A stretch of 64,000 nucleotides of DNA from Candidatus Wallbacteria bacterium (lineage in GTDB: Bacteria > Muiribacteriota > JAQTZZ01): the NCBI GenBank assembly GCA_028687545.1, contig JAQTZZ010000002.1, forward strand, positions 74,087 to 138,086. The letters run 5' to 3'. Under the pieces are notes generated by a model. The model was given only the letters and a program-made list of their open reading frames with translations, was not told the origin of the DNA and searched no databases. A program made the position numbers and the translations under genes. Of the stretch, positions 20,236-45,761 are shown in pieces; the stretch's first letter is position 1; the number at the start of each line of letters is the position of its first letter.

Positions 20236-20309
20236 TTCATGCCGACAAAGATACAGAAACTGAAATGCGTCAATAATTTCGGCATTTCATGTATCAGAAA
20301 ACTGACTAA

Positions 20310-20338: not shown

Positions 20339-20437
20339 CTAAATCTGGCATGTTTTACTGCCAATTCCGGGGGCAGTCAGGATCATGGCAGATCCTTCAG
20401 ATCTCTGTCATGGTATAATTAAAATTTAAAGGCTTCA

Positions 20438-21700: not shown

Positions 21701-21716
21701 TGTTACTGGAGGAAAT

Positions 21717-22661: not shown

Positions 22662-22672
22662 TAAATCTGGCT

Positions 22673-24403: not shown

Positions 24404-24434
24404 AAAGGGCACGGTTTCCCGTGCCCTTTTGGTT
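24402..24434. terminator. Bidirectional rho-independent terminator between the small secreted protein gene (+) and giant gene B (-). It is the same sequence as 13181..13214.
   Basis: The sequence AAAAAGGGCACGG-TTTC-CCGTGCCCTTTT lies between two convergent stop codons. Confidence 0.8.
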
Positions 24435-29638: not shown

Positions 29639-29747
29639 TACTCCGCTCCCCCTATCGATAATTTTTCATCTTCTAGAGTATCCGTGCAATTTATTAGTAT
29701 TATTATTATATTACTTTCCTTAGTCGCCATTGTTTCGTCAGGCAGTG

Positions 29748-31570: not shown

Positions 31571-31671
31571 ATTTTTCCTTTCCGGAGGAGAAGTGATTTG
31601 TCCCCCTGATATGTAAATAAATCAAGGCCAAATAAAATCCCGGCATTTCCTGGATCTGGAAACTATCAGTA

Positions 31672-31700
31672 ATTTTATCCGCGATCCTGCTATCTGTCAA
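31672..31700 (-). promoter_or_regulatory. Sigma70-type promoter (TTGACA-N17-TAAAAT) for operon B
   Basis: On the minus strand, TTGACA (plus-strand 31695..31700) is followed by a 17-nt spacer GATAGCAGGATCGCGGA and then TAAAAT (plus-strand 31672..31677). The flanking sequence is conserved with copy A. Confidence 0.5.
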
Positions 31701-31771
31701 CTAAGCCCAAAGATAACTATTTACCAAATATTGTGGTCTCGGGTAAAAGATAATGTTAAACTTTAAACGGA

Positions 31772-32716: not shown

Positions 32717-33375
32717 AAAGCCGGATTCTCATGCTGTGCGCCGTTTTTCTGCTGAGAATTGCTTCAGCCTGTCCGGCTTACACAGTGATGGATTCAACCA
32801 ACAATGACATGAAGGCGGCTTCAGCCAAACTATACTGGAGCGTGATCTTCTCGCTGAACAAATATGAGACCGGAACTTCGGAAGCGTCAGTTTTCAGAAC
32901 TAACTGGGATCAGCTTTCCTCTGTCTGGATGTTGTTTCAGACTAAGCTCGAAAACTGGCTGCGCCTGCTGCCTGAAGATCTGGGGCGGAAGGACTGGGAA
33001 AACGCCCTGAAGTCATTCTCTGATAACATCCAGACCATTAGAACCCAGATCGCGGCAGGCAGCCTGGAAATTTCGCTGGCAACAGCAGCCGAACTCAAAA
33101 CAGAACTCCTGCTTTTTTATCATTGCAATCCCCTGGACGGGGCAAAATATGCAGCTGAAACAGGCGATAAATTGCTGCTTGCAAAAGTGGCTGCGAATCT
33201 CTCCCTTCTCAAGGACCTCCCTGAACCATTGCTTGAATTCCGGAAACACCTGAATAGTCTTTATGAGAATTTCGACGATGCGCACTGCAGGGAATTTCTT
33301 GTCTGGAGGGAATCTCAAAGAATAAATCTGAAGAAGGAGTTGAGCGCTTACTTTGAAAAGCACAGCTGGTATTGA
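32713..33375 (+). CDS. Small secreted protein of unknown function (copy B)
   Basis: It has a signal peptide and the motif LFQTKLENWLRLLPED. It overlaps the upstream gene by 4 bp. Confidence 0.45.
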   Translation: MKSRILMLCAVFLLRIASACPAYTVMDSTNNDMKAASAKLYWSVIFSLNKYETGTSEASVFRTNWDQLSSVWMLFQTKLENWLRLLPEDLGRKDWENALKSFSDNIQTIRTQIAAGSLEISLATAAELKTELLLFYHCNPLDGAKYAAETGDKLLLAKVAANLSLLKDLPEPLLEFRKHLNSLYENFDDAHCREFLVWRESQRINLKKELSAYFEKHSWY

Positions 33376-34588
33376 CAGAATCGCAGCCGCTTTAGTCGTG
33401 CTGATACTGATCCACCTGCTTGTCTTTCCTCAGGTGATCGAAAAAATTCCCTTGCCAGGAGGAAAGACTGCCACAGACTGGCCGCTGGTGATGGTTGTAT
33501 TCTGCGCCAATCTCTTTTTTTTACTCTCCGGTTCCCTGCAGAGTGGAAGGCGCGGTTTCAGCTGGGAAATCTTTTTGTGCACTTATCTTCTACTGTTCGT
33601 GCTGATTTTCGTCCTGGCCGGGCGAGTGCTGTTCTTTGTGCTTTCGATATTTATGCTCTCAGGCTTGTATCATGACAAGCGCAAGCTGGGCTACCTTTTC
33701 CTGTTCCTGGCCTCGGTTCTGCTGGTATCAGCTTACTGGATCCCTGCTTTTATCTTATTTTCATTTCTTTACTACATTGTCCTGGAAACTGCCGGCAGAG
33801 TGGAAAATACCATGGAGAAGATATTCCTGGGCATCGGAATCTTACTTCTGCTCCTGCTGCTTTTCCCATTGATCAACCTGCTCTTTCAGTTCCAGGCGCA
33901 GACGCTTGTCGCATCCTTTTCTCCGGCACTGAAAGAGGCCCTGTTTACCAGTTGCCTGACCAGCGCGGTCTCCACGATCCTGATCCTTTTATTCGGTATA
34001 CCGCTCGCTTACATCATGGCCAGAAAGGAATTCGGCTGTAAACCTGTGATCGACGCGCTGATCGACCTGCCGATCATGGTTCCCCAGACTGCAGCGGGGA
34101 TAGCGATCCTGGTGCTGCTGGGGCCGAATACCCCGCTGGGAGAATTCTTTTCCGGATGTTTCGGTCTCTCTTTTGCCGGGAGCTATCTCGGGATCATCGC
34201 CTGCCAGATGTTCGTGAGCAGTCCTTTCCTGCTGCGTTCCGCGATCCATGCCTTCTCTGGAGTAGACCGCAGGCTGGAGAATGTCAGCCGTTCGCTCGGT
34301 GCGAAACCCCTGGCCACATTTCTCCGCGTCTCGCTGCCCCTGGCTTCTGCCGGTATCTTCAACGGCTGCATCCTCTGCTTTTCCAGAGCCATCTCCGAAG
34401 CCGGCAGCCTGATGATAGTCGCCTACAGGCCGGCCACAATCCCGATTCTGATCGACGACAACTTTTCCCGCTTCGGAGTGCGTGAAGCGGCTCCACTCTC
34501 AGTGCTGTTCATAATCATCTGCCTCTGGGGTTTCATAGTTTTGAAATGGCTTTATGAGACCAGGAAGAAGGCGGTGCTGCTGCCGTGA
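33353..34588 (+). CDS. ABC permease (ModB/WtpB-type) with an N-terminal membrane extension (copy B)
   Basis: It is a paralog of 20438..21700 and carries the EAA-loop region ENVSRSLGAKPLATFLRVSLPLASAGI. Confidence 0.7.
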   Translation: MKSTAGIDRIAAALVVLILIHLLVFPQVIEKIPLPGGKTATDWPLVMVVFCANLFFLLSGSLQSGRRGFSWEIFLCTYLLLFVLIFVLAGRVLFFVLSIFMLSGLYHDKRKLGYLFLFLASVLLVSAYWIPAFILFSFLYYIVLETAGRVENTMEKIFLGIGILLLLLLLFPLINLLFQFQAQTLVASFSPALKEALFTSCLTSAVSTILILLFGIPLAYIMARKEFGCKPVIDALIDLPIMVPQTAAGIAILVLLGPNTPLGEFFSGCFGLSFAGSYLGIIACQMFVSSPFLLRSAIHAFSGVDRRLENVSRSLGAKPLATFLRVSLPLASAGIFNGCILCFSRAISEAGSLMIVAYRPATIPILIDDNFSRFGVREAAPLSVLFIIICLWGFIVLKWLYETRKKAVLLP

Positions 34589-34604
34589 CGGAGAAAAATC
34601 CCAG

Positions 34605-35576
34605 ATGAACATCAGCTATCCGATCAAAAAACTCATGTCTGAACCGCTGCTTCCCATCAAAGGCAGCTGGATCGATGCCTTTCCTCTCTTACTGGTGTTC
34701 GGAATTTTACTTCTAGCTGCATTCCTCTTAGCCAGGAAAACCAGTTTCCACGAAATCCTGCGGAATCTCTGCCGGATCATGACTGCCTTCATTTTCGTAT
34801 TCTTTCTCTTCAAGTGCCTCTGCATCGTCAAGCTTGCAGCTTTCGGATTTTCCGAGATCGGCAAGGACGACCTGATCTCATTTTCCATGCTCTGGCTGAT
34901 CGCGGTCGTGGGCTCCGCGACTTTCCTGTTTGGCCGGATTTTCTGCGGTTTTCTCTGCCCGGTAGGGTTTCTGCAGGAAATATCCGGACGCTTTTCTCCG
35001 CTGAAACAAAGCTTCACGAAAAAAATCTATCTTTCCCTGCTTCTGATTCTGTCATCTCTGCTTCTCTATGAAGTCTGGCCTGCCAATGAGTTCGCCTTTG
35101 AATTCGTGATTGCCATCCTGAGCTTTATCATGGTGGGGATAGCGCTGCTGGTTCAATTCAGGCCTGATCTGGAACCTGCCCTGTTGAAAGCGAAGTATCC
35201 GATCCTGGCGGTCTACCTCTTCATCAGCGTGCTGGGAATCTATTTCAGTGAGGTCTGGTGCACCCTGTATGGAGCTGAAATCGACTATTCTTCGATCATT
35301 TCACTGCCCCTGGTGATTCTGGCCGCCCTGGCTGTCGGCATGCCATACTGCCGCTATGTCTGCCCGACCGGTTTTTTCCTGGCCCTCTGCAGTAAAACTT
35401 CTTTGTACTCCATCCACGGCAATTGCATTGACTGCGGCATGCCCTGCGGGAAAATATGTCCTTCAGGCGCTCTTTTCAAGGGAAAAATCGATCCCCTGCT
35501 CTGCATCTCATGCGGACGCTGCATAAAGAACTGCACTGCAGAATACAGAAGGCGAGACGGAAAACCGGATGTTTAA
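34605..35576 (+). CDS. NapH/MauN-family 4Fe-4S membrane protein (copy B)
   Basis: It carries FCGFLCPVGFLQE, YCRYVCPTGFF and a C-terminal ferredoxin-like cysteine cluster. I chose the start at 34605 (MNISYPIKK...) because it aligns with the copy-A N-terminus and sits 11 nt after a GGAG. The track ORF begins earlier, at 34554. Confidence 0.65.
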   Translation: MNISYPIKKLMSEPLLPIKGSWIDAFPLLLVFGILLLAAFLLARKTSFHEILRNLCRIMTAFIFVFFLFKCLCIVKLAAFGFSEIGKDDLISFSMLWLIAVVGSATFLFGRIFCGFLCPVGFLQEISGRFSPLKQSFTKKIYLSLLLILSSLLLYEVWPANEFAFEFVIAILSFIMVGIALLVQFRPDLEPALLKAKYPILAVYLFISVLGIYFSEVWCTLYGAEIDYSSIISLPLVILAALAVGMPYCRYVCPTGFFLALCSKTSLYSIHGNCIDCGMPCGKICPSGALFKGKIDPLLCISCGRCIKNCTAEYRRRDGKPDV

Positions 35577-36882
35577 ATGGCTCCTGATACCGCTTCTGCT
35601 CCTTTCCTGTACCGCTCAGGCAGCCGCAATTCCAGCTGACGATTCACCCTGGTACATGGCAGGAGGCGGCCCGGGCAAGGAAAACTGCACGAATCTGAAT
35701 TTTGATACACTCGAACTGCTCTGGACTTTTTCGCCAGGCCTGCATGTCTGGGAATACAGAAAAAGGATGAGCGTCTGGTCGGAATCAGTGGTTGCCGGAA
35801 CTGTCTCAGGCAGGCCCCTGCTTTTCTGCGGCAGCTATGATCACAATCTCTATTGCCTTGACGCCCGGACTGGCGCAAAGGTCTGGCGCTTCTCCACCGG
35901 CCTGCCGATCAACTCCTCCCCCTTGCTGATCGATTCCCAAAATGGGACCCGAGTATTCGTGGTTTCCACTGACAGGGTGGCCTACTGCCTGGATGCAGGT
36001 ACAGGCAGTAAAATCTGGTCCAGAGAGATCTATCCCTGGACTTTCACGGCTTTCGACGGCATCTTCCCTTCCCCGATCTCTGGTTCAGTGGGAAAGCGGG
36101 AACGCATTTTTCTCTCTGCCTGGTATGCGGACAACAAGCCGGTCAGGCCTGAACAGGCCGGCGTCGTTTTCTGCCTGGACCCTGAAACCGGGAGCACGGT
36201 CTGGATGAAGGCTGTCGGGAAAAGTCCCCTGTATTCGCCGGCCTTTATCAAGAAGGGTGACGGCGGCTGCCTGTACATCACTTCCGAAGACGGCAACATC
36301 TATTGTTTTGACGCAGAAAACGGCAGCCTGCTCTGGAAACACACCACTGCAGTCAATATGTCGTCTTCGCCAATGGTTGCAGCGACTCCGCAAAGGCGGC
36401 TTTACTCGGGAAACCTATTCGGGGTCTACTATGCACTTGACGCGGATTCCGGGGAGGAAATCTGGACATGCAAAATGGGAATGCAATGCATTTACCCGGG
36501 AGCATTGACCGGTTTGGGTGGAACTGTCCGCCTCTTTGTCGCGAATTTTGACCGCAATCTATATTGTCTCGACGCCAGGGAAGGCACAGTTTTATGGAAA
36601 TTCCAAACCGGAAAGTACAATGCAAGTTCACCGCTTTTGATCAATTTCAAGGGGGAGCAGGCTGTAGTTTTCCCATCACTGGATAACTCGCTTTATGTAG
36701 TACGGGCTTCAGACGGGAGCAGGATCTGGGAATACCGGATGGGAGAACGGCTCTGGGCTTATGATACAAGAGGGTGGACGCTCTGGCCGTCTCCGGTGGC
36801 TGTCAGGCTCGAAGGGAGAGCCCTTCTTCTGTTACCATGGTATGATGGGAAGATATATGCATTCAGTGCCGGTGCCGGCTGA
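35569..36882 (+). CDS. Secreted PQQ-like beta-propeller repeat protein (BamB-like fold)
   Basis: It has a signal peptide. Repeats such as LYCLDARTGAKVWRF, AYCLDAGTGSKIWSREI, IYCFDAENGSLLWKH and LYCLDAREGTVLWKF recur. It overlaps the upstream gene by 8 bp. Confidence 0.7.
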   Translation: MFKWLLIPLLLLSCTAQAAAIPADDSPWYMAGGGPGKENCTNLNFDTLELLWTFSPGLHVWEYRKRMSVWSESVVAGTVSGRPLLFCGSYDHNLYCLDARTGAKVWRFSTGLPINSSPLLIDSQNGTRVFVVSTDRVAYCLDAGTGSKIWSREIYPWTFTAFDGIFPSPISGSVGKRERIFLSAWYADNKPVRPEQAGVVFCLDPETGSTVWMKAVGKSPLYSPAFIKKGDGGCLYITSEDGNIYCFDAENGSLLWKHTTAVNMSSSPMVAATPQRRLYSGNLFGVYYALDADSGEEIWTCKMGMQCIYPGALTGLGGTVRLFVANFDRNLYCLDAREGTVLWKFQTGKYNASSPLLINFKGEQAVVFPSLDNSLYVVRASDGSRIWEYRMGERLWAYDTRGWTLWPSPVAVRLEGRALLLLPWYDGKIYAFSAGAG

Positions 36883-36979
36883 TTATTTCGCGCTGTACAG
36901 CTGGTGGAAACAAACGGGGGAAAATCCCTGATTGCTTTGATTTGACTGCATTTCAATAGTTTAGTATCATCAATCATGC

Positions 36980-39900
36980 GTGAAATTATGTTGGTTGTTC
37001 AACGGAGCCTCTCAGATGACTGAATTAGATAAAAATCCACATCATGCCGTCAATGAGCAGATACGTTTACTGCTGCAATCCGAAGATGAGACTGAACGCA
37101 AGCAGGCGATCATCCAGCTCGCCAAAAAACCGAGCCGCGAAAATTTCCTGACGCTGCAGAAAATAGCTGATTTCGATGAATCGGTCGAAGTGCGGTTTTA
37201 TGCCAAAAAAGCCTTGAATGTTCTGAAAAGCAGAATCACTCCCAAATTGTCCGAAAAGAAAACCGCCTATTTCAGTCCTGCTGAAATCGAGAATTTTTTT
37301 GAAGGAAAGACCGAAAGCAGCCAGGCGGTACCGATCATTCAACACCTGGTCAATACTGGTTTGAAAGAAAAGCTCCCGGAGTTGATCACTGTATTGAACC
37401 GGGAAAAAGATTCCAACATCCTGGCTGCCCTGCTGATTGCAATCGGCAAATTCGGATCAGAGAGCGAAATTAAAACTATCGCCCCGTTTCTCTCCCACGA
37501 AATTCCCAGAGTCAGGGCCAACGCAATCGACGCGCTGGAAATGATCGGCAGCGAGCGGGCCTATCCTTTTGTGATCTCGAAACTGGAGGATGCCGACAAC
37601 CGAGTCCGAGCCAACGCGGTACGGTTCGTAAGGGAACTCGGCGGAGTGAACACTCTGAAAATACTGCGCACCATGGCCGGTTCTCCCGGTGTCGCGATGC
37701 GCGCCTCGGCAGCCTATGTGCTGCAGTATTTCCCCACTCAGGAAAACATGGAAACTGTATTGACATTATTCAATGACCGCGATCTGACTGTCAGGAACAA
37801 TGCGCTTAAAACCCTGCTGATCTTTAAAAAGAAAGGAGTGGGGAAAGCGGAAGAGATCTTGAAAAAGCTGGGCAAAGAGGCAGAAATAAAAGCGGAAAGC
37901 CTGGAAGAGATCGAACATGAAACGCAGGACACTGCCGAGACAAGGGACAGGCTGAAGACCGTATTGAACAGTTCAGACCCGGGGATGCGGCTGAAAGCGA
38001 TAGTGGATACAGTGGAAAAAGGCTCAGGCGGAGCAATACTGCTGGAGCATCTTTCAAAAGAAAATGATCACAAGGCAATCGCCACTATCATTATCGGTCT
38101 GGGAAAACTCCAGTATCGGAAGGCACTTCCGGTGCTGGTAAAATATCTTAAATCAAAAGATGCACGCTGCCGGGCAAATGCTGTTGAGGCAATCAGGTTA
38201 ATCAATGATAAAGACAAATTAAAGGAAATAATCCCGCTTTTGAAGGATGAGAACAACCGGACCCGGGCGAACTCGATCCTGGCTTTGAAAGATGAGAAAA
38301 ACGCCGGAATCTATGCCTCGCTGCTTGAGATGGTCAAATCTGAAACGAAAGAGATGCAGCTGTCCGTGATCTACGTCATCATGGAGCTTGAAGATCTGGA
38401 TTACTATGAATTTCTGCTCGAACTTGAAAGGTCAGGGCATCCGGAAGTCTCGAAAAAAGCACGCGACAGCATTAAAACACTGGAAAGTCAGGGCATAAAA
38501 GTTCTGATAAAAACGGAAACCGAACGCTCGAGCCGGGTGTTCCGGATCTATGTCAGTTCGACCTTCAGCGACCTCAGGGAAGAGAGGGAAGCGCTCCAGG
38601 CGAAAGTTTTCCCGAAGTTGAGTAAGCTCTGCCGGCAGCATGGCTATCGTTTTCAGGCTGTCGACCTGCGCTTTTTGATTACGGAAGAAGATGCAATAGA
38701 CCAGCAGACGATGAAGATCTGTTTATCCGAAATCAAACGCTGCCAGGCAGTCTCCCCCAGGCCTAATTTCATGATTCTTCTCGGTGACCGCTATGGCTGG
38801 CGGCCGCTTCCTGCCGAGATACCGGAAAGTGAATATTATAAAATTTCGGAAAAGCTCCGCGTGAAAATAAAAATGGGTAAATTCACGGCCGAAGACCTGA
38901 AACTGCTTGATTCATGGTATAAACGCGACCTGAACGCTTTATCCAAAAAAAAGGATTCTGAAACCTTATGGGTATTGCAGCAGCGGACAGGCGAATATGC
39001 AGAATTGAAATGCTGGGAGAAAGTTGAACAGAGGCTTTCTCATATCTTGAGACAGGCGACAGGAGATTTCCAGGGGGATCGACGCCTGTTTTATAATGTC
39101 TCAGCCGTTGCGCAGGAAATTGTCAAGGGTGCCCTGGAACACAGCAAAAACGCCAAAAAGCATGTATTCTGCTTTTTCAGGAAAATATCCAATCTGGATG
39201 ATCTGAAAATAGACTTGCGCTCAAAGAAATCACAAGTTAAAGATTTTGTTGATACTGATGCGGGAGGTGCCTTTGATCAGGAATCCCATGGCCTGTCGGA
39301 TTCACTCAAGAACATGTTGTACAAGACCCTGCCTCAAAACATCTTTGAATACGATGCCAGATGGGAAAAAGGCAAGCTGACGACCGGCCATATCGATAAA
39401 ATGTGCCGGGATGTTTATCAGGCGCTGTCCTGCGTCATCCTGGATAAAATAGCGCATGACGTCAAACTTACCCCGCTCGCCAAAGAAATCATTAACCATG
39501 AAAATTTCCGCTTGAAAATAGCAAAAAACTTTACCGGGCGGGGGGAATACCGGAAGTTCATCGCGGATTATCTGAAACCTGATGTAGAGCCAAAGGCACC
39601 CCTGGCGATTTACGGGCAAGCAGGCAGCGGAAAATCCGCTTTACTGGCTCAGTCGATCTCCGATGCGATTGAAAAATATGGTAGAAATACGGAGCAGAGC
39701 ACGTTTGTTGTAATCCATAGGTTTTTAGGGAACACGCCCGATTCATCGACTCTTCACTCATTACTGGAAAGCCTCTGCCGCCAGATAGCCCATCATTATG
39801 GCATTGATGAAAAATCGATCCCTTGTGATGATGACGGCCTGGAAATGAAATTCCTGGAATTACTGAGATCAGCTACTGCCAGAAAACCGCTGCTCCTGTT

Positions 39901-41767
39901 TCTGGACGCTCTGGATCAACTGCCGAATGATAACCATGCCCATGAATTGAGATGGTTGCCTCCCGAAATTCCGGAAAACGTCAGGTTGGTGGTCTCGACA
40001 TCTGCCGGCGCGATCACGGCAAACGACAAGTCCAGGGATGATTCAGAAAGTTGCCTGGAGCATCTGAAGAAAAAGATCCCTCAGGAAAACATCAAAGAAC
40101 TGCAAAATATGCCAGCCAGTGAAGGCTCGCTTCTGCTGGATTGCTGGTTAAAAAAAGCCGGCCGCCAATTGACGGGAGAACAGCGCTCCCTGATTCTGGA
40201 TAATTTCAAAAGGAACGGCAATCCCCTTTATTTGAAAATTGCCTTTGGGGAAGCCAGACGCTGGAAATCATTTACAAAGCCTGAAGAAATAAAGTTGAGC
40301 GCTGACCTGGCCGGCATCATCAAAGACCTGTTTAAGCGCCTGTCTCTGCCCCAGAACTGCGGAGAAATGATTGTCTCCCGCATACTTGGTTATCTTGCCG
40401 CAGGCCGCAATGGATTATCCGAAGAAGAGCTTTTGGAGATTCTGGCTGCTGATCCTGATTTTTATGGTTATCTTGACAGCCAGCTGCATTTAAGACTGCA
40501 AAAGTCCATAGAGAAAAAACAGATCCCGTTCGTGGTCTGGGCACGGCTTCATTTTGAACTCGCTCCCTATCTTTTAGAAAGCATGATCGGTGGATCATAC
40601 CTGCTGACTTTCCTGCACAGGCAGTTCAGCATGGCCGCAAAAGAAATGTATCTTTCGGGTCAGGATAGAAAGAAGCTGCATCAGGTTCTGGCCGGATATT
40701 TCGAGAATAATCCGGGAATGGATGACAGGAAATTTGACGAACTGCCCTGGCAGCTGTGCCGGGCTGAGAACTGGTCAGGCCTGAAAGATTGTATTACAGA
40801 TCTCTCTATGTTTAAAAAATTCCTGCTGGAGGGAAGAAGATCCGAATTGACAGGTTACTGGGCTTCTCTTGCCGGCAGATTCGATATGGTCCAGTCATAC
40901 AATCTGATGATCGAAAATCATGAAAACACTTCTCCTGCAGCCGCCGACTTCGCACTTTTAATAAATCAGACTGCCTCTTTCCTGCAAGATAATGCAAGAT
41001 ATGAAGGAGCTGAATCACTTTTCCGCAAAGCTCTGTCAATACAGGAAAAGGAAGTGGGGTCAGAACACCCTGACACAGCCCTCAGCCTGAACAATCTTGC
41101 CACTCTGCTTAAAAATAAAGGTGACTATGGTGGAGCGGAACTGCTTTACTATAGGGCTCTGGCGATCTGGGAAAAGGCCTTGGGCCCGGATCACCCGAAC
41201 ACGGCCCTCAGCCTGAACGATCTTGCAATGCTGCTTTACAATAAAGGGGACTATGAAGGTGCTGAGCCCCTTTTACGCAAGGCTCTGGCAATCAGGGAAA
41301 AGTCATTGGGTCCCGAGCACCCGGATACTGCCCTGAGTCTGAACAATTTTGCCATGCTGCTTTACAATAAAGAGGACTATCAGGAAGCTGAACCCCTTTT
41401 GCGCAAGGCCTTGGCGATCTGGGAAAAAGTTCTGGGACCGGAGCACCCAGATACCGCTCGAAGCCTGGACAATCTGGCAGGGCTTTTGAAAAATAAGGGA
41501 AGCTATTGCGAAGCTGAGCCGCTTTACCGCAGGGCTCTGGCAATCAGGGAGAAGGTATTGGATCCCGAACACCCTGATACCGCTCTCTCCCTCCACAATC
41601 TTGCGACTCTGCTTGTGACAATGGGAGACAATCTGGGAGCGGAACCCCTTTATCGCAGAGCTCTGATAATCTGGGAAAAGGTGCTGACCCCTGACCATCC
41701 ATGGACACGAGCTGCCAGAAACAATCTGGATTCTCTGTTACAGCGAAAGCAAAAAGGCACTGTTTGA
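36980..41767 (+). CDS. STAND-class NTPase: N-terminal PBS-lyase-type HEAT repeats, a DUF4062-like domain, a NACHT/NB-ARC-like P-loop NTPase, and C-terminal kinesin-light-chain-type TPR repeats
   Basis: HEAT units with VRxxAxxAL cover about aa 20-500. The segment SRVFRIYVSSTFSDLREEREAL...MILLGDRYGWRP lies around nt 38531..38820. Walker A GQAGSGKS is at 39614..39637. Walker B LLLFLDALDQL is near 39890. Six or more units of the form LGPEHPDTALSLNNLA..LL.NKGDY..AEPLYRRALAI.EK run to the C-terminus. Confidence 0.8.
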   Translation: MKLCWLFNGASQMTELDKNPHHAVNEQIRLLLQSEDETERKQAIIQLAKKPSRENFLTLQKIADFDESVEVRFYAKKALNVLKSRITPKLSEKKTAYFSPAEIENFFEGKTESSQAVPIIQHLVNTGLKEKLPELITVLNREKDSNILAALLIAIGKFGSESEIKTIAPFLSHEIPRVRANAIDALEMIGSERAYPFVISKLEDADNRVRANAVRFVRELGGVNTLKILRTMAGSPGVAMRASAAYVLQYFPTQENMETVLTLFNDRDLTVRNNALKTLLIFKKKGVGKAEEILKKLGKEAEIKAESLEEIEHETQDTAETRDRLKTVLNSSDPGMRLKAIVDTVEKGSGGAILLEHLSKENDHKAIATIIIGLGKLQYRKALPVLVKYLKSKDARCRANAVEAIRLINDKDKLKEIIPLLKDENNRTRANSILALKDEKNAGIYASLLEMVKSETKEMQLSVIYVIMELEDLDYYEFLLELERSGHPEVSKKARDSIKTLESQGIKVLIKTETERSSRVFRIYVSSTFSDLREEREALQAKVFPKLSKLCRQHGYRFQAVDLRFLITEEDAIDQQTMKICLSEIKRCQAVSPRPNFMILLGDRYGWRPLPAEIPESEYYKISEKLRVKIKMGKFTAEDLKLLDSWYKRDLNALSKKKDSETLWVLQQRTGEYAELKCWEKVEQRLSHILRQATGDFQGDRRLFYNVSAVAQEIVKGALEHSKNAKKHVFCFFRKISNLDDLKIDLRSKKSQVKDFVDTDAGGAFDQESHGLSDSLKNMLYKTLPQNIFEYDARWEKGKLTTGHIDKMCRDVYQALSCVILDKIAHDVKLTPLAKEIINHENFRLKIAKNFTGRGEYRKFIADYLKPDVEPKAPLAIYGQAGSGKSALLAQSISDAIEKYGRNTEQSTFVVIHRFLGNTPDSSTLHSLLESLCRQIAHHYGIDEKSIPCDDDGLEMKFLELLRSATARKPLLLFLDALDQLPNDNHAHELRWLPPEIPENVRLVVSTSAGAITANDKSRDDSESCLEHLKKKIPQENIKELQNMPASEGSLLLDCWLKKAGRQLTGEQRSLILDNFKRNGNPLYLKIAFGEARRWKSFTKPEEIKLSADLAGIIKDLFKRLSLPQNCGEMIVSRILGYLAAGRNGLSEEELLEILAADPDFYGYLDSQLHLRLQKSIEKKQIPFVVWARLHFELAPYLLESMIGGSYLLTFLHRQFSMAAKEMYLSGQDRKKLHQVLAGYFENNPGMDDRKFDELPWQLCRAENWSGLKDCITDLSMFKKFLLEGRRSELTGYWASLAGRFDMVQSYNLMIENHENTSPAAADFALLINQTASFLQDNARYEGAESLFRKALSIQEKEVGSEHPDTALSLNNLATLLKNKGDYGGAELLYYRALAIWEKALGPDHPNTALSLNDLAMLLYNKGDYEGAEPLLRKALAIREKSLGPEHPDTALSLNNFAMLLYNKEDYQEAEPLLRKALAIWEKVLGPEHPDTARSLDNLAGLLKNKGSYCEAEPLYRRALAIREKVLDPEHPDTALSLHNLATLLVTMGDNLGAEPLYRRALIIWEKVLTPDHPWTRAARNNLDSLLQRKQKGTV

Positions 41768-41845
41768 GTCAGCACCGCTTTCAGACAACTTTATTAGTTT
41801 TCTAAACTCTGATAAAATGTCATAAAAAATTAATCCGGAAAAAAT

Positions 41846-44800
41846 ATGCCTTCTAAAATTGTCTCTCAGAATCTCTCGATCATGATCACCGACATCCAGG
41901 GATTTTCTAATACTACAACCTCCAGTTCCCGTTCGGAGATTGTGGATCTGATCCGCAGGCACAAACAGCTGATGGTGCCGGTAATTGAATTTTACAAGGG
42001 CCGGATCTACAAGACCATGGGTGATGCTTTTCTGTGCGGCTTCAACAGTGCAACAGATGCAGTGGTCTGTGCCCTGATCGTCCAGCTGGTGCTCAAAGAA
42101 TTCAATGACCGGCTGCATGACGAGAGCAAGCAGATGCTGATCAGGGTTGTAATCAACTCCGGAGACGTGACCATCGAGGAAAACGATGTTTTCGGCGATG
42201 CGGTTAATATAGCGGCCAGGATGGAAGCCCTGCCCTGCTTTCCTGGCGGTTCGATCGGCATCAGTGAATCCACATATCTTCTAATGAATCGCAGTGAAAT
42301 AGTGTCTGAAAAGATCGGGCCGATGGAGCTTAAAGGCATTACCGAACCTGTGACCGTCTACCAGGTACCTGTGGCGAAACAGAAACTTACTTCAATTCCC
42401 AGGCATCTGCTGGAACTGATAGAATCAGTGTTCGATTCCAAGGATGCGAATCCTGAGACAGTCAAGCAGTGGAATGAGTCGATCCGCAATTTTCTGGGTG
42501 CCAAGCCTGAATCCGTATCCGGCCCGTCGAAAATTCAGGAAACACCCGACAAACTCAAGCTGAAAGCCGTCAAATCAGGGACAACCCATGTTGAAAAAAC
42601 AACCCATCCTCCGGAGGTACAGAAGGCGGTTCCGGAAGCTAAGGGCGGCAAAAAGAGTTTCAGAGACCTGAAAAATGAAGCTGATCCGCTCCAGGGGTTG
42701 ATCTCAGACCCATTCAGCGGAAAAAAAGGCAAAGAAGGAATTGCGGTGAAACGGGTGGGGAATGCGGAAATTTCTCAGCCTCATGTTGCTGTTAAGCCTC
42801 CCCGTACTCCAAATATTACCAGAGACCAGAAACCAGCTCAACCAAAACCCGCCGAAGCTGAACCCTTCGGAATGCAGAAGCTGCTGTTTCTGCTGGGTCT
42901 GCTTTCCCTGAGCCTCTGCCTGATTTTTTTCATGGTCCAGTACAGAAATGATCCCCGCCTCAACCTTCGTTTATATTCTTTCGGCCTGATCAGCAAGAAT
43001 TACGCAACTTCCCGAATTTCAGCGGAATTCCCTTTCCAGAATCCCGACATGCGCATTTTCATCATCAAATCCCTGATCGAAATAAAAGCTGACCCCAAAG
43101 AAGTGCTGCTGCTGATTTTTTCATCCCTGAAAGATCAGGCTGCCCAGGTTGCGGATTTCGCTGCCAAAAAATTGGATGATTATCTGAGAAACGACCCTGC
43201 TGCTTTTTCCGCACTGCTTCTTCTGCAGAAACACCGCAACCCGGATCTGGCTTCACAGGCTGCTCAAAAAATCAGATCAATCGGAGCCGATGATTTAGGG
43301 AAAATTCTCTCAAATTCGCTGAACAGCCAGGATCCTCTGGTCAGGGCAATGGCTTTGAAAGCTTATGCCGGCAGATCCGATGCACAGCAGGTGAGCCGGA
43401 AATTCCTGAGCGATGCCGATCCCCAGGTCAGGCTAGCTGCGCTCGACACCTGTTCAGGTTCGGACAGCAGTGAAACCACTGCCTCGGCACTGGCCGAATG
43501 CCTGGCCGACCCTGACACTGAAGTCCGAAAAGCAGCTGTGACTGCGCTGAAGCATTTCATCAGTTTTCCGTCATCTCTGGCCGCAACTCTGATCAAGGCC
43601 GTCAAAAGCGATGATCCGCAGGTGCGCCTGCTGGCGGTTTCCGCGCTGGGAACCGCCGGCTGCAACAGCAGCGAAGTTATTGCATCTCTAAAGGAAGCCA
43701 TGTCCGATCCAAATAAGCAGATCAATCTCCAGGCAATCCGTTCACTCCAGATGCTGGGAAATGCCCAGACCTCCCTGCCTGAAATGATCAAGGCTCTTTC
43801 GGACAAGAATCAAAAAATCAGCGGTTCCGCTTCAGAAACTCTTGCCAGCCTTCTTGCCAGCGAGGCGGCAATTCCATCGCTTGCGAACTGTATTTCAGAT
43901 CCCGATCACAGCGTCAGACTGTATGCGGCGAATGCCCTGGGAAATTTCGGCAAATCCGCATTGTCTGCTTATCCGATGCTCCTGGATGGTCTGAAAAACT
44001 GCGAATCATCAGATCTGAAATGCTTCACAGATGCGCTCAGCAAAATAGGCAGTGATGAGCCGGGCACAATTCCATATCTTACAAAAGCCCTTTCAGAAAA
44101 TTCCCAGCGCTTGCGTTTATTCGTGATCGACACACTTGGGCATTACGGTAAAGCTGCCAGCGATACGGCAGTTCAGCTGACACCACTTTATGCTGACGGC
44201 AGCAGGGAACTGCGTGGCCAGATTCTTAATACCCTTGGGGAAATCGAACCTGATTTCAAGATCTCCTTTTCCCTCATTTCCAAAGCTCTCACGGACAAGG
44301 ACGATTCCTTGCGCACTCAAGCGGAAGAAGTCCTGAAAAAACTGGCCGTCTCCACTGATGCGCTTCCATTGCTGCTGGAATCGCTCTCTCATAAAGACCA
44401 GACGATCCGTGCCACTGCTGCTTCAACGATCGGATTCTCGAACCAGGACCTGAAACCCGCCATACCTTTGTTGACAAACTGCCTAGCAGACCCGATAAAA
44501 ACCGTGAAAGACAATGCCGCAGCCTCGCTTATCAGAATTGGCGGACCCGCGGTTTCTTACCTTGGTGCAAAATTGCAGAGTTCGGACAACGCTGAAATCA
44601 AATTAGTGCTGGAGGTTCTGGACCGCTTTGGAGACCAGGCAGGAAGCGCAGTCCAGGCGATAGTTCCGAAGCTTAACGACCCTGATCTCGAAATCCGCCG
44701 GCTCTGCCTCAAAATCCTGGGAAACGTCCAGTCAGGACCTGAGTGCATTCCCGCTGTAATACAATTGTTAAAGGATAATGACCCTGAGGTCTGCCGGCTG

Positions 44801-45229
44801 GCAATCAAAGCTCTGGAAAAAAACGGAAGCACTTCTGCTGCGGCTATCCCGGAACTCACAGCCTCGCTTTCAAGTTCAGATCCTTATTTACGCCGTCTGG
44901 CCATTAAAGCCCTGGATTCCATTGACATTGACAAGAAAATAACAGGCACAACCCTGATCAGGGCACTCAACGGCAGCGACTCGTATTTGAGGGAATATGC
45001 GGATGAAGCTCTGACCCGCATGGATAAAAATCCTCAACTGGCGGTTGCCGCTTATGGAATAGCGCTGCATGACAGCGATCCATTTGTCAGAACCTATGCC
45101 GCCAAAGCCCTGAGCAGGTTCGGATCTGGATCCAGGGAATTTATTCCCGTTCTTCAGGAGATGGCTAAGAGCGACGAGAGTTTCACTGTCCGCAGCGCAG
45201 CCCAGGAAGCACTGAAAACGATCAAATAA
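41846..45229 (+). CDS. Class III adenylate/guanylate cyclase catalytic domain fused to a TM helix and a long array of PBS-lyase HEAT repeats
   Basis: The N-terminal 175 aa carry IMITDIQGFSNTT...YKTMGDAFLCGF...GDAVNIAARMEAL, the class III cyclase signature. A hydrophobic helix LLFLLGLLSLSLCLIFFMV lies near nt 42880..42945. At least 15 DPxxxVRxxAxxALG HEAT units follow. Confidence 0.75.
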   Translation: MPSKIVSQNLSIMITDIQGFSNTTTSSSRSEIVDLIRRHKQLMVPVIEFYKGRIYKTMGDAFLCGFNSATDAVVCALIVQLVLKEFNDRLHDESKQMLIRVVINSGDVTIEENDVFGDAVNIAARMEALPCFPGGSIGISESTYLLMNRSEIVSEKIGPMELKGITEPVTVYQVPVAKQKLTSIPRHLLELIESVFDSKDANPETVKQWNESIRNFLGAKPESVSGPSKIQETPDKLKLKAVKSGTTHVEKTTHPPEVQKAVPEAKGGKKSFRDLKNEADPLQGLISDPFSGKKGKEGIAVKRVGNAEISQPHVAVKPPRTPNITRDQKPAQPKPAEAEPFGMQKLLFLLGLLSLSLCLIFFMVQYRNDPRLNLRLYSFGLISKNYATSRISAEFPFQNPDMRIFIIKSLIEIKADPKEVLLLIFSSLKDQAAQVADFAAKKLDDYLRNDPAAFSALLLLQKHRNPDLASQAAQKIRSIGADDLGKILSNSLNSQDPLVRAMALKAYAGRSDAQQVSRKFLSDADPQVRLAALDTCSGSDSSETTASALAECLADPDTEVRKAAVTALKHFISFPSSLAATLIKAVKSDDPQVRLLAVSALGTAGCNSSEVIASLKEAMSDPNKQINLQAIRSLQMLGNAQTSLPEMIKALSDKNQKISGSASETLASLLASEAAIPSLANCISDPDHSVRLYAANALGNFGKSALSAYPMLLDGLKNCESSDLKCFTDALSKIGSDEPGTIPYLTKALSENSQRLRLFVIDTLGHYGKAASDTAVQLTPLYADGSRELRGQILNTLGEIEPDFKISFSLISKALTDKDDSLRTQAEEVLKKLAVSTDALPLLLESLSHKDQTIRATAASTIGFSNQDLKPAIPLLTNCLADPIKTVKDNAAASLIRIGGPAVSYLGAKLQSSDNAEIKLVLEVLDRFGDQAGSAVQAIVPKLNDPDLEIRRLCLKILGNVQSGPECIPAVIQLLKDNDPEVCRLAIKALEKNGSTSAAAIPELTASLSSSDPYLRRLAIKALDSIDIDKKITGTTLIRALNGSDSYLREYADEALTRMDKNPQLAVAAYGIALHDSDPFVRTYAAKALSRFGSGSREFIPVLQEMAKSDESFTVRSAAQEALKTIK

Positions 45230-45761
45230 AGCGCTTTCTTCCGAGGAAAATCACTGCCAATAACAGCAGTATCGCCAGGAATGCGTTGTATTCCTTATTC
45301 CGCACCGCAAGTTTCAGAGAAAATTTCGACTTGGCATAGGAATGAATCTTAGGAAAAAAAAGGGGAACTTGATTACTGTAATTCTCGAAATCGCTCCCGA
45401 AAAAACGTCGCAGATCGCTCTCTTCCTGCCGCATTTTTGGCAGATAGGCACAGCTAAAAGCTATGCAAAAACCAAGGATCAGAGAAACCGGAAGCAGCAG
45501 GACTGAAAATCCGAACCCCATCATGAAACTGCCGAAGTAAAGAGGATTTCTGGTCAGGGAGTAAGGCCCGCTCCTGGCGAGCTCTCGATTCTTGGAAATG
45601 GTCCCTGCCGCCCAGAAGCGTGTCAGTAATCCGGATAAAATCAGTAAAATTGCGGGTTTTCTAAGTTTCTCTTTCCGATAGCAAAATAAAATCAAGACAA
45701 ACAGGGCACCCAGGAACTTCCTGAAAAAATTTAATTGCCTGTAGGTCGGTTTTTTCATCAC
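45222..45761 (-). CDS. Isoprenylcysteine carboxyl methyltransferase (ICMT/PEMT)-family membrane methyltransferase
   Basis: The motif SGPYSLTRNPLYFG is present, together with a multi-TM profile. Confidence 0.6.
   Translation of the reverse strand: MMKKPTYRQLNFFRKFLGALFVLILFCYRKEKLRKPAILLILSGLLTRFWAAGTISKNRELARSGPYSLTRNPLYFGSFMMGFGFSVLLLPVSLILGFCIAFSCAYLPKMRQEESDLRRFFGSDFENYSNQVPLFFPKIHSYAKSKFSLKLAVRNKEYNAFLAILLLLAVIFLGRKRFI

What the first reader, a model, noticed from the sequence alone, without database searches (positions are those of the whole stretch)
36980..41767. 1595 aa STAND NTPase with an unusual HEAT - DUF4062-like - NACHT - KLC-type TPR architecture
The central P-loop (GQAGSGKS, then LLLFLDALD) together with C-terminal kinesin-light-chain-type TPRs marks a STAND (NB-ARC/NACHT-like) signalling ATPase. 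A VFRIYVSSTFSDLREEREAL...LLGDRYGWRP block precedes the NTPase. I recognise this as DUF4062-like, a domain recurrently fused to the N-terminus of bacterial and eukaryotic STAND NTPases. About 500 aa of PBS-lyase HEAT repeats lie upstream of that. Related DUF4062-NACHT-TPR proteins are candidate defence or programmed-response sensors. The N-terminal HEAT extension and the genomic pairing with a cyclase (next finding) are not something I know to be described.
Basis: partly seen in the sequence, partly recalled or inferred. Interest (0 to 1): 0.7.

Follow-up and report, generated by a model that had tools for sequence, protein, structure and literature searches.

The report
HEAT-capped NADase-type bacterial NLR protein
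This gene from an uncultured Wallbacteria genome encodes a large NLR-like switch protein whose effector is a TIR-like NAD+-cleaving domain (DUF4062/NIR). The kind is known; two things are unusual: a 500-residue HEAT-repeat cap in front of that effector, and a nucleotide-cyclase gene next door that recurs in its few close relatives.

Summary
The true start is probably the ATG at 37016, giving 1583 aa. This is NCBI MDD2714537.1 from a Candidatus Wallbacteria MAG.

DUF4062 is no longer of unknown function. Three 2026 preprints show it is a TIR-like NADase ("NIR") that acts as effector of Avs2, Swarozyc, Evangelion, Vulcan and Vesta, and of human TEP1. Here the catalytic Glu (E713, aligned to TEP1 E1008) and 45 of 49 family-invariant NIR-core residues are kept.

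The DUF4062-NACHT core belongs to a large prokaryotic family, with 537 relatives in GTDB representative genomes. In that family the NIR domain sits at the extreme N-terminus.

The HEAT cap is rare. I found five clusters among 1.84 billion representatives; the three other full-length members carry WD40 instead of TPR.

A co-oriented class III cyclase gene lies directly next to three of those five. Among 78 uncapped relatives, two have a cyclase within 10 kb (Fisher p = 0.001).

The surroundings are housekeeping genes, not a defence island.

Verdict: a new variant of a known kind, most likely a ligand-triggered NAD+-depleting NLR. The link to cyclic-nucleotide signalling is possible but unproven.

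The parts
36942..36970 (+). Promoter-like site TTGACT-17-TATCAT upstream of the NLR gene
   Evidence: Best match (10 of 12) in the consensus scan of 36600-45500. The scan found no more sites than shuffled sequence gives, so this is weak evidence.
37016..41767 (+). NLR-like gene, probable true CDS (1583 aa; the mechanical ORF starts at the GTG at 36980, 1595 aa). NCBI MDD2714537.1, Candidatus Wallbacteria MAG.
37037..37870 (+). HEAT solenoid block 1 (ORF residues ~20-297)
   Evidence: Pfam HEAT_2, HEAT_PBS and HEAT_EZ. AF2 model mad7b39fe5000 is all-helical here, with block-mean pLDDT mostly 80-97.
37928..38488 (+). HEAT solenoid block 2 (ORF residues ~317-503), separated from block 1 by a low-confidence acidic linker
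   Evidence: Pfam HEAT_2 and HEAT. AF2 pLDDT ~90-98. The whole ~500-aa module is 41-65% identical to the caps of P0122 and P0124 and to the HEAT module of P0207, which lacks NIR.
38525..39199 (+). NIR / DUF4062 TIR-like domain (ORF residues ~516-740), including a family-specific ~90-residue inserted subdomain (~616-705)
   Evidence: PF13271 at 46.7 bits. Matches the solved human TEP1 TIR-like domain 11gz_A at E 8e-11 with this protein and 3.6e-15 with the family consensus. AF2 core model has pLDDT 85.7.
39116..39118 (+). Codon of E713 (E701 counting from the ATG), the putative catalytic glutamate in SAVAQEI
   Evidence: Aligns with the second Glu of TEP1 SVTEME, which is E1008. The chain numbering was checked against R908, R954 and R976.
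39530..40309 (+). NACHT nucleotide-binding domain (ORF residues ~851-1110). Walker A GQAGSGKS at 39614-39637; Walker B LLLFLDALD at 39890-39916.
   Evidence: Pfam NACHT, AAA_16 and NPHP3_N. Motifs checked. Foldseek matches Apaf-1, CED-4, NLRC4, NLRP3 and MalT.
40310..40939 (+). Helical and winged-helix domains of the STAND module (ORF residues ~1111-1320)
   Evidence: HTH_NWD1 at 20.4 bits, below its cut-off. AF2 secondary structure. Conserved across the family.
40940..41764 (+). C-terminal KLC/NPHP3-type TPR array, six to seven repeats (presumed sensor)
   Evidence: TPR_10 258 bits, TPR_12 250 bits, TPR_NPHP3 215 bits
41846..45229 (+). Downstream co-oriented gene (1127 aa, MDD2714538.1). It has a class III nucleotide cyclase domain (residues 8-173), a ~170-residue low-complexity linker, one predicted TM helix (residues 346-364, nt 42881-42937) and ~700 residues of HEAT repeats. 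Candidate functional partner.
   Evidence: Guanylate_cyc 69 bits and HEAT_2 251 bits. Catalytic set D16, D60, K56, D114, N121, R125 read from alignments to solved cyclases. Hydropathy. No + strand terminator-like site in the 78-bp gap.

Best explanation
The gene encodes a cytoplasmic NLR-like STAND ATPase of the prokaryotic family that is homologous to eukaryotic NWD1, NPHP3 and TEP1. Its order of parts is: HEAT solenoid cap (~500 aa), NIR/DUF4062 TIR-like NADase domain, helical linker, NACHT NTPase with helical and winged-helix domains, and an NPHP3/KLC-type TPR array.

Shown here: the identity of each domain; intact Walker A and B motifs; retention of the catalytic Glu (E713) and of R604; the rarity and recurrence of the HEAT cap; and the recurrence of an adjacent cyclase gene.

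Inferred by analogy with Avs2-NIR, Swarozyc and Apaf-1/NLR mechanisms:
1. The resting protein is autoinhibited.
2. A protein ligand of phage or stress origin binds the TPR array, and possibly the HEAT cap.
3. Binding permits nucleotide exchange and NACHT-driven oligomerisation.
4. [quoted passage not shown]
5. The result is growth arrest or abortive infection.

The HEAT cap most likely acts as a second recognition, adaptor or autoinhibitory module, comparable to the TROVE-vWA region that precedes NIR in TEP1.

The downstream cyclase-TM-HEAT gene is probably co-transcribed. It is a candidate partner that would couple the switch to cAMP signalling. That coupling is the least certain step.
For: Domains: Pfam hits above cut-off for HEAT_2, DUF4062, NACHT, NPHP3_N, TPR_NPHP3 and TPR_10/12.

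NIR domain: it matches the solved TEP1 TIR-like domain at E 8e-11 and 3.6e-15. E713 aligns to catalytic E1008 and R604 to R976. Of the family-invariant positions, 45/49 in the NIR core and 12/13 in the C-terminal part are kept, as are 46/47 in NACHT.

STAND module: the AF2 core model has pLDDT 85.7 and pTM 0.85. Its best solved-structure matches are Apaf-1, CED-4, NLRC4, NLRP3 and MalT.

Biochemistry from the literature: DUF4062/NIR hydrolyses NAD+ to ADPR and nicotinamide, depends on the conserved Glu, and is the effector of Avs2, Swarozyc, Vulcan, Vesta, Evangelion and TEP1. [quoted passage not shown]

HEAT cap: it is conserved at 41-65% identity in P0122, P0124 and P0207, and at 35-45% over the longer stretches aligned in P0123 and P0161. 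Separate ~505-521-aa HEAT genes sit directly upstream of uncapped NIR-NACHT genes in L035, L037 and L047, and in L037 the stop and start codons overlap.

Cyclase: a directly adjacent, co-oriented cyclase is present here, at P0123 (L081-L083) and at P0124 (L086; in L087 the same gene is cut by the contig end). Among 78 uncapped loci, 2 have a cyclase within 10 kb (p = 0.001, or 0.01 if the two orthologous TPR-S cyclases are counted once). The window's cyclase keeps all catalytic residues. Kibby et al. list cNMP cyclases among domains fused to bacterial NACHT proteins.
Against: - No experiment exists on this protein or on any prokaryotic member of this NWD1/NPHP3-like subfamily.
- Full-length human NWD1, NWD2 and NPHP3, which share this architecture, showed no NADase activity in vitro.
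- The protein departs from residues conserved in 91-99% of the family near the active site: T710V, E711A, K704F, and DLRWG changed to DLRFL. The NIR domains of clade members P0122 (34/49 invariants) and P0161 (21/49) are visibly degenerating.
- No PADLOC NLR or Avs model matches.
- The neighbours are LPS and outer-membrane biogenesis and transporter genes, with no defence or mobile-element genes and no compositional anomaly.
- A 500-aa N-terminal cap is atypical for effectors that must cluster after oligomerisation.
- AF2 gave no defined HEAT-NIR arrangement (pTM 0.39).
- The cyclase domain is 60-65% identical to a lineage-wide 'cyclase+RDD' family that sits in unrelated contexts. The HEAT regions of the two adjacent proteins share only generic repeat similarity.
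- The cyclase's HEAT region may lie outside the membrane.
Confidence: 0.5

Rival explanations
1. It is a non-immune signalling STAND. The protein would be a housekeeping or environmental-response switch of Wallbacteria that works with the adjacent adenylate cyclase. The NACHT-TPR-HEAT parts would integrate a cellular cue. The output would be regulated NAD+/ADPR turnover and/or control of cAMP synthesis, not abortive infection.
For: The context is chromosomal and housekeeping, with native composition. The cyclase domain belongs to a conserved lineage-typical family, at 60-65% identity. The same HEAT module is fused in this lineage to RDD, PilT, WG-repeat and TPR modules, and the cyclase family is fused to RDD, which suggests a shared signalling network. 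Eukaryotic relatives NWD1 and NPHP3 have non-immune roles and showed no detectable NADase activity. No defence HMM matches.
Against: Every bacterial DUF4062 system tested experimentally so far is an anti-phage NADase, and NIR genes are enriched near defence genes. The family has a patchy distribution across bacterial and archaeal phyla, typical of conflict systems. C-terminal sensors are swapped between close relatives: TPR here, WD40 in P0122, P0123 and P0161. In L081 the neighbourhood includes FGE-sulfatase-type genes and an ORF with a weak, below-cut-off Mrr match (E 0.002), which has a conflict-system flavour.
Confidence: 0.25
2. The NIR domain is a scaffold rather than an enzyme. In the HEAT-capped clade it would have lost or be losing NADase activity and would serve only as an oligomerisation or adaptor domain. 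The HEAT cap would then be the real output, recruiting the cyclase or another partner.
For: There are substitutions at otherwise 91-99% conserved positions next to the catalytic Glu and in the BB-loop region: T710V, E711A, K704F, W565F, G566L. The decay is stronger in the clade members P0122 and P0161, while their NACHT domains stay better conserved. The position of NIR is internal rather than N-terminal.
Against: E713 and R604 are retained, as are 45/49 core invariants, which is within the range of uncapped family members (minimum 31, median 49). P0123, also HEAT-capped, keeps 49/49. TEP1 is an active NADase although its NIR domain is internal, at residues 886-1113.
Confidence: 0.12
3. The cyclase neighbour is coincidental. 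The NLR would act alone, and the cyclase-TM-HEAT gene would simply be the next gene in a lineage rich in cyclases and HEAT proteins.
For: Only two independent arrangements support the link: this one, and the orthologous TPR-S cyclases of L081 and L086. The cyclases in the two arrangements are barely related (23% identity, E 1e-4) and lie on opposite sides of the NLR. The closest relative, P0122, has a different, unknown 662-aa gene downstream. P0001 and the 78 uncapped relatives lack cyclases nearby. The cyclase HMM was built from these same sequences, so background detection may be under-sensitive.
Against: Three of five clade loci have a directly adjacent, co-oriented cyclase, against 2 of 78 with a cyclase anywhere within 10 kb. 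The TPR-S cyclase stays adjacent although its NLR partners have diverged to 39% identity. The gaps are short: 78 bp here, 72 bp in L086 and 284 bp in L081. No terminator-like site lies in the gap here.
Confidence: 0.35

Closest known systems
NIR/DUF4062-containing NLR-like and Avs proteins, e.g. PsAvs2 (Le Mouellic et al., bioRxiv 10.64898/2026.09.04.749371)
   Same: A DUF4062/NIR effector with a conserved catalytic Glu, a central STAND NTPase and a C-terminal TPR-type repeat sensor. The expected output is hydrolysis of NAD+ to ADPR and nicotinamide.
   Different: Here NIR is not N-terminal but preceded by a ~500-aa HEAT solenoid. NIR carries a ~90-residue insert typical of the NWD1-like family. 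The NTPase scores as NACHT/NPHP3_N, and no PADLOC Avs or NLR model matches. The gene is not in a defence island, and there is an adjacent cyclase gene.
Eukaryotic NWD1, NWD2, NPHP3 and TEP1 (NIR-NACHT-WD40 or TPR)
   Same: The same core order, with specific Pfam hits to NPHP3_N, TPR_NPHP3 and (weakly) HTH_NWD1. There is direct sequence similarity to the solved TEP1 TIR-like domain. TEP1 and NPHP3 also carry sizeable regions N-terminal to NIR.
   Different: This protein is prokaryotic. Its N-terminal region is HEAT rather than TROVE-vWA or coiled coil. Only TEP1 has shown NADase activity. The biological roles (vault, cilia) are unrelated to anything inferable here.
Vulcan (NIR fused directly to C-terminal HEAT repeats; same preprint)
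   Same: NIR and HEAT repeats combined in one protein. In Vulcan the HEAT repeats are the presumed sensor of a phage protein.
   Different: Vulcan has no NTPase and its HEAT repeats are C-terminal. Here HEAT is N-terminal and a full NACHT-TPR module follows.
Bacterial NACHT (bNACHT) defence proteins (Kibby et al., bioRxiv 10.1101/2022.07.19.500537)
   Same: NACHT with an N-terminal effector and a C-terminal repeat sensor. That survey lists NAD+-targeting domains (TIR, SIR2, DrHyd) and cNMP cyclases as NACHT-fused domains, and places TEP1 in clade 16.
   Different: The tested bNACHTs are enterobacterial proteins of other clades. The clade of this protein was not determined. The cyclase here is a separate gene, not a fusion.
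Pycsar (PycC cyclase plus a cNMP-activated effector)
   Same: The neighbour's class III cyclase domain gives a weak PycC hit (E 1.6e-9).
   Different: No cNMP-binding effector is adjacent. The substrate-specifying residues K56 and D114 look adenylate-type. The closest relatives are lineage-typical cyclase+RDD proteins.

Membership tests
STAND NTPase, NACHT type | Walker A (GxxxxGK[ST]) and Walker B (hhhhDxxD) motifs | tested here: met
   GQAGSGKS at residues 879-886 and LLLFLDALD at 971-979. G879, G882, G884, K885, D976 and D979 are invariant or nearly so in 120 homologues.
STAND NTPase, NACHT type | Profile match to NACHT above the curated threshold | tested here: met
   PF05729 at 37.4 bits (cut-off 26.7); also AAA_16 at 40.2 (32.6) and NPHP3_N at 33.7 (24.8).
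STAND NTPase, NACHT type | NBD followed by helical and winged-helix domains, with a fold resembling solved STAND proteins | tested here: met
   AF2 model with pLDDT 85.7. Foldseek probability 1.00 to Apaf-1, CED-4, NLRC4, NLRP3 and MalT; ORC/Cdc6 also match as the neighbouring AAA+ group.
STAND NTPase, NACHT type | C-terminal superstructure-forming repeats | tested here: met
   Six TPR_10/TPR_12 repeats plus TPR_NPHP3.
DUF4062 / NIR TIR-like NADase | Profile match to PF13271 above threshold | tested here: met
   46.7 bits against 24.7. The match stops at profile position 68 of 82 because of a family-specific insert.
DUF4062 / NIR TIR-like NADase | Homology to a solved NIR domain | tested here: met
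   Human TEP1 TIR-like domain 11gz_A: E 8.3e-11 with this protein and 3.6e-15 with the family consensus.
DUF4062 / NIR TIR-like NADase | Catalytic glutamate (TEP1 E1008, PsAvs2 E108, KpSwz E97) | tested here: met
   E713 in SAVAQEI aligns with the second Glu of TEP1 SVTEME. It is conserved in 117 of 120 family members. The neighbouring residues are altered (T710V, E711A).
DUF4062 / NIR TIR-like NADase | NAD+ hydrolase activity | not testable with these tools
   Needs a biochemical assay. Full-length human NWD1, NWD2 and NPHP3 were inactive in vitro.
DUF4062 / NIR TIR-like NADase | Effector placed at the extreme N-terminus of the NLR (the usual arrangement, not strictly defining) | tested here: not met
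   NIR starts at residue ~516. In nearly all of 120 homologues it starts at residue ~2-23.
Known anti-phage NLR/Avs systems (PADLOC models) | Match to an Avs, NLR or bNACHT defence HMM | tested here: not met
   Only the generic HEAT-ARM and HEAT_CxxC models match.
Known anti-phage NLR/Avs systems (PADLOC models) | Location in a defence island or mobile element | tested here: not met
   Neighbours are an ABC transporter, Fer4 and PQQ-propeller genes, LpxA, LpxC-FabZ, TamA/B, MlaD, PdxA and LpxK. Gene GC is 0.48 against 0.495 for the window. Only the NLR and the cyclase were scanned with PADLOC.
Known anti-phage NLR/Avs systems (PADLOC models) | Protection against phage | not testable with these tools
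   Requires heterologous expression and phage challenge.
NWD1/NPHP3/TEP1-like NLR family | Family-specific profiles around the NACHT domain (NPHP3_N, HTH_NWD1, TPR_NPHP3) | tested here: met
   NPHP3_N at 33.7 (cut-off 24.8) and TPR_NPHP3 at 215 (cut-off 100). HTH_NWD1 at 20.4 is below its cut-off of 27.
Vulcan | NIR fused directly to C-terminal HEAT repeats without an NTPase | tested here: not met
   HEAT is N-terminal here and a NACHT-TPR module follows.
Pycsar (for the neighbouring cyclase) | PycC-type cyclase with an adjacent cNMP-binding effector | tested here: not met
   The PycC hit is weak (35 bits). No cNMP-binding domain was found in the NLR or the flanking genes. The closest relatives are cyclase+RDD proteins.

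The most novel reading that the evidence does not exclude
HEAT-capped NIR-NACHT proteins and class III nucleotide cyclases form a previously undescribed two-gene module in which an NLR-type switch is coupled to cyclic-nucleotide signalling. In one direction, the cyclase would relay or amplify NLR activation, perhaps by sensing the NADase product. In the other, it would gate the NLR in response to an envelope or extracellular cue read by its own repeat domain. The non-orthologous replacement of the cyclase partner (TPR-S cyclase upstream in two loci, cyclase-TM-HEAT downstream here) would then reflect selection for the function rather than shared ancestry.
Probability: 0.2. Interest if true: 0.75.

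Novelty: new variant of a known kind. Interest (0 to 1): 0.5.

Why it matters
NIR/DUF4062 was recognised as an NADase only in 2026. The prokaryotic NIR-NACHT family found here is the closest bacterial and archaeal counterpart of human NWD1, NWD2, NPHP3 and TEP1, and none of its members has been tested.

A variant whose effector is capped by a conserved HEAT module raises a question: how can an internal TIR-like domain be activated by oligomerisation? The same problem exists for TEP1.

The recurrent cyclase neighbour gives a concrete, testable lead for crosstalk between NLR-type sensors, NAD+ cleavage and cAMP signalling in a little-studied candidate phylum.

If the pairing proves coincidental and the protein behaves as a standard NADase NLR, it is simply one more member of a large known class.

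Tried and rejected
- PADLOC and NCBIfam scans of both proteins gave only generic repeat hits and a weak PycC hit.
- A metagenome-contig scan with a HEAT+NIR alignment returned only HEAT-only relatives and no new fusions.
- AF2 of HEAT+NIR, run to look for a docking or autoinhibitory interface, gave confident domains but no defined arrangement (pTM 0.39). The NIR part was poorly modelled from a shallow alignment. A first alignment for this job (A3) was discarded because MAFFT misaligned NIR-NACHT sequences onto the HEAT region.
- A Pfam scan at E <= 10 of the unassigned middle domain of the TPR-S cyclases and of the window cyclase's linker found nothing. My guess that the middle domain is SLOG-like is therefore unsupported, and I dropped it.
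- The 662-aa gene downstream of the closest relative P0122 has no Pfam hit and no similarity to the window's cyclase.
- The context of P0001, the closest uncapped core, has no HEAT gene and no cyclase.
- The context of the canonical cyclase+RDD gene (P0382) has no NLR nearby.
- The HEAT regions of the NLR and of the cyclase share only repeat-level similarity. The idea that one was copied from the other is rejected.
- The idea that this NIR domain is broadly degenerate is rejected for this protein (45/49 invariants), though not for P0122 and P0161.
- The source genome is not among the GTDB representatives; the best hit there is 45% identical.
Full report
**1. Is the feature real?**

The window has an uninterrupted 1595-codon ORF at 36980..41767 on the + strand. 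The GTG at 36980 is probably not the start, for three reasons:
- The ATG at 37016 is preceded by GGAG at the right distance.
- The best sigma-70-like site in the region, TTGACT-17-TATCAT at 36942-36970, would leave no leader for the GTG.
- Public gene calls use the ATG, giving 1583 aa.

An exact-sequence look-up identifies the protein as NCBI MDD2714537.1, 'tetratricopeptide repeat protein', from a Candidatus Wallbacteria MAG contig of 221,925 bp. The next gene is MDD2714538.1, 'HEAT repeat domain-containing protein'. I use ORF (GTG) numbering below; subtract 12 for ATG numbering.

**2. Domain architecture**

Pfam supports the following:
- HEAT_2, HEAT and HEAT_PBS over residues ~25-470.
- DUF4062 at 522-610 (46.7 bits, cut-off 24.7).
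- NACHT at 875-1056 (37.4, cut-off 26.7), with AAA_16 and NPHP3_N.
- A sub-threshold HTH_NWD1 hit at 1112-1229.
- TPR_NPHP3 and six TPR_10/TPR_12 repeats running to the C-terminus.

An AlphaFold2 model of residues 516-1320, built on 45 homologues, is confident (pLDDT 85.7, pTM 0.85). Its best solved-structure matches are Apaf-1, CED-4, NLRC4, NLRP3 and MalT. The Walker A motif (GQAGSGKS) and Walker B motif (LLLFLDALD) sit on family-invariant positions. The protein has no hydrophobic segment and is presumably cytoplasmic.

**3. What DUF4062 is now known to be**

A full-text search found three 2026 preprints.
- Osinski et al. (10.64898/2026.05.01.722283) show DUF4062 is a TIR-like NADase producing ADPR and nicotinamide. 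It is the effector of the Swarozyc defence system and is active in human TEP1, with catalytic E1008.
- Le Mouellic et al. (10.64898/2026.09.04.749371) rename it NIR. [quoted passage not shown] They describe Vulcan (NIR plus C-terminal HEAT) and Vesta. They note NIR in NWD1, NWD2, TEP1, TTC41 and NPHP3.
- Ibarra-Chavez et al. describe Evangelion.

So the DUF4062-NACHT-TPR core is a described kind.

**4. Is the NIR domain here likely to be active?**

The domain matches the solved TEP1 TIR-like domain 11gz_A directly (E 8.3e-11). With the family consensus, the alignment extends through the active-site helix (E 3.6e-15).

I fixed the chain numbering at chain position 1 = residue 894. With that offset, the three arginines named in the paper (R908, R954, R976) all fall on Arg in the chain. 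E1008 is then the second Glu of SVTEME. It aligns with the second Glu of the family motif SATEQE, which reads SAVAQE in this protein.

E713 is thus retained, and it is conserved in 117 of 120 homologues. R604, the equivalent of R976, is also retained.

Of the positions that are at least 95% conserved in 120 homologues, this protein keeps 45/49 in the NIR core, 12/13 in the C-terminal part of NIR and 46/47 in NACHT.

There are departures close to the active site: T710V, E711A, K704F, and DLRWG changed to DLRFL. Their effect is unknown. This family also carries a ~90-residue inserted subdomain between the RYGW strand and the catalytic helix. That insert explains why the Pfam match stops at profile position 68 of 82.

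**5. The family and how unusual the HEAT cap is**

The core (516-1320) has 713 word-index hits at E <= 1e-10 and 537 relatives in GTDB representative genomes. These span many bacterial and archaeal phyla at 37-45% identity. This is a patchy, HGT-like spread.

C-termini vary: none (~780 aa), WD40 or TPR. In nearly all of these proteins NIR begins at residue ~2-23.

An exhaustive HMMER search of 1.84 billion representatives with residues 13-1200 found only a handful that also align over the HEAT region:
- The protein itself.
- P0122: 63% identical, WD40 C-terminus, from the same SRA run. Its contig has a tetranucleotide correlation of 0.92 with the window, so it is probably a paralogue in the same or a sister genome.
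- P0123: 45% identical, WD40.
- P0124: 54% identical, a fragment.
- P0161: 35% identical, WD40, with a badly degenerate NIR domain.

The ~500-aa HEAT module is itself a recognisable unit. It occurs alone or fused to WG-repeat, RDD, PilT or TPR modules, mainly in Riflebacteria and Wallbacteria. A metagenome scan found only such HEAT-only relatives.

In three uncapped loci (L035, L037, L047) a separate ~505-521-aa HEAT plus zinc-ribbon gene sits directly upstream of the NIR-NACHT gene. In L037 its stop overlaps the next gene's start. That HEAT protein is of a different type, but it shows that HEAT plus NIR-NACHT recurs as a pairing.

AF2 models the cap as two helical solenoid blocks (about ORF residues 20-297 and 317-503) joined by an acidic linker. 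It gives no defined position for the cap relative to NIR (pTM 0.39).

**6. The cyclase neighbour**

The next gene lies 78 bp downstream on the same strand, and no + strand terminator-like site falls in the gap. It encodes:
- a class III cyclase domain (residues 8-173),
- a low-complexity linker,
- one predicted TM helix (residues 346-364),
- ~700 residues of HEAT repeats.

Alignment to solved cyclases shows the full catalytic set: D16, D60, N121 and R125. K56 and D114, read by me as the adenine-specifying pair, are also present. An active adenylate cyclase is therefore plausible.

Its cyclase domain is 60-65% identical to a lineage-typical cyclase+RDD family. That family sits in unrelated housekeeping contexts.

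The adjacency recurs. P0123 (L081-L083) and P0124 (L086/L087) each have a TPR-S/MAP3K_TRAF_bd plus Guanylate_cyc gene directly upstream on the same strand, with gaps of 284 and 72 bp. Those two cyclases are orthologues (56% identity), although their NLR partners have diverged to 39%. They are almost unrelated to the window's cyclase (23% identity, E 1e-4).

The flanks of the other two clade loci are only partly informative. L080 (P0122) has 270 bp upstream and an unknown 662-aa gene downstream. L085 (P0161) has an oppositely oriented 404-aa gene upstream, and the contig ends downstream.

A cyclase HMM run over six-frame ORFs finds a cyclase within +/-10 kb in only 2 of 78 uncapped loci, and neither is directly adjacent and co-oriented. 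Fisher's exact test gives p = 0.001, or 0.01 if the orthologous pair is counted once.

Three caveats apply. The numbers are tiny. The HMM was built from these same sequences. Wallbacteria and Riflebacteria may be rich in cyclases.

Kibby et al. list cNMP cyclases among domains fused to bacterial NACHT proteins, so a NACHT-cyclase connection has precedent as a fusion.

**7. Context**

Within the 64-kb window the neighbours are two paralogous transporter/Fer4 clusters with giant unknown proteins, a PQQ beta-propeller, an ICMT/PEMT-type methyltransferase, LpxA, LpxC-FabZ, Omp85/TamA, TamB, MlaD, PdxA and LpxK. There are no integrases or recognised defence genes, and no GC anomaly. PADLOC has no NLR or Avs hit for this protein. 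The defence role is therefore inferred from homology only.

**8. Interpretation**

The best-supported reading is an autoinhibited NLR-like switch. Its TPR array, and perhaps its HEAT cap, bind a trigger. Its NACHT domain then oligomerises, and its NIR domains deplete NAD+.

The main uncertainties are these:
- Whether NIR is catalytically competent in this subfamily. Human NWD1, NWD2 and NPHP3 were inactive in vitro, and the relatives P0122 and P0161 show decay.
- Whether the role is immune or physiological.
- Whether the cyclase is a true partner.

TEP1 shows that an internal NIR domain can be an active NADase, so the cap does not exclude activity.

I rate this a new variant of a known kind, of moderate interest. 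The interest lies in the conserved HEAT cap and in the recurrent, non-orthologous cyclase neighbour, neither of which is mentioned in the text of the papers I could read.

Noticed in passing
window 13215-23605 and 24434-36882: Two paralogous gene clusters. Giant proteins of 1694 and 1734 aa are 79% identical and have no Pfam hit. Each is followed by pairs of unknown ~320- and ~290-aa proteins (46-48% identity) and by an ABC-type solute-binding protein, a permease and a Fer4_5 membrane protein (43-55% identity). The second cluster ends with a PQQ beta-propeller gene just upstream of the NLR.
   Followed up: partly
L080 270-5519 (P0122), same SRA run SRR22315507: A HEAT-NIR-NACHT-WD40 paralogue, 63% identical over residues 9-1186, on a contig whose tetranucleotide profile correlates at 0.92 with the window. 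Its NIR domain is degenerating: SSTFSDL is changed to ISTF-DL, SATEQE to SAASRE, and 34 of 49 invariants remain. Its NACHT domain is better kept at 42 of 47.
   Followed up: partly
L035 455-1969, L037 10-1575, L047 1148-2668: Separate ~505-521-aa genes encoding PBS-lyase-type HEAT repeats plus a C-terminal Cys-rich (zinc-ribbon-like) region. Each lies directly upstream of an uncapped NIR-NACHT gene. In L037 the stop codon overlaps the next start (ATGA).
   Followed up: partly
L081 5153-7072; L086 543-2399: The TPR-S/MAP3K_TRAF_bd plus cyclase proteins next to P0123 and P0124 have an unassigned ~200-residue middle domain with no Pfam hit even at E <= 10. Their cyclase motifs are atypical: NTWGDG instead of K-T-x-G-D, and FGVHVARAARIE lacks the transition-state Asn. 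They may make a different nucleotide or be non-catalytic.
   Followed up: partly
L081 13624-23620: Downstream of P0123 lie a 106-aa ORF, two FGE-sulfatase-domain genes and a gene called at 7526 aa with FGE-sulfatase, fn3 and PQQ domains. Upstream of the cyclase is a 575-aa ORF with a weak, below-cut-off Mrr_cat hit (E 0.002). FGE-sulfatase domains are described as variable 'antigen-receptor-type' modules in bacterial conflict systems.
   Followed up: no
window 41846-45229; P0381-P0500: The neighbour's cyclase domain belongs to a highly conserved (60-65% identity) 'class III cyclase + RDD membrane domain' family of ~425 aa that looks characteristic of Riflebacteria, Wallbacteria and Muiribacteria. 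The NLR's HEAT module also occurs fused to RDD in this lineage, which hints at a cyclase/RDD/HEAT domain network.
   Followed up: partly
window 47195-48472 (-): A fused LpxC-FabZ (FabA-like) bifunctional gene sits in an LPS and outer-membrane biogenesis neighbourhood (LpxA, Omp85/TamA, TamB, MlaD, LpxK). This indicates a diderm envelope for this Wallbacteria MAG.
   Followed up: no
P0114 (1039 aa, JGI): A family member that carries a canonical TIR domain (PF13676) N-terminal to DUF4062 and has no recognisable P-loop by a simple motif search. It would be a double TIR-like arrangement.
   Followed up: no
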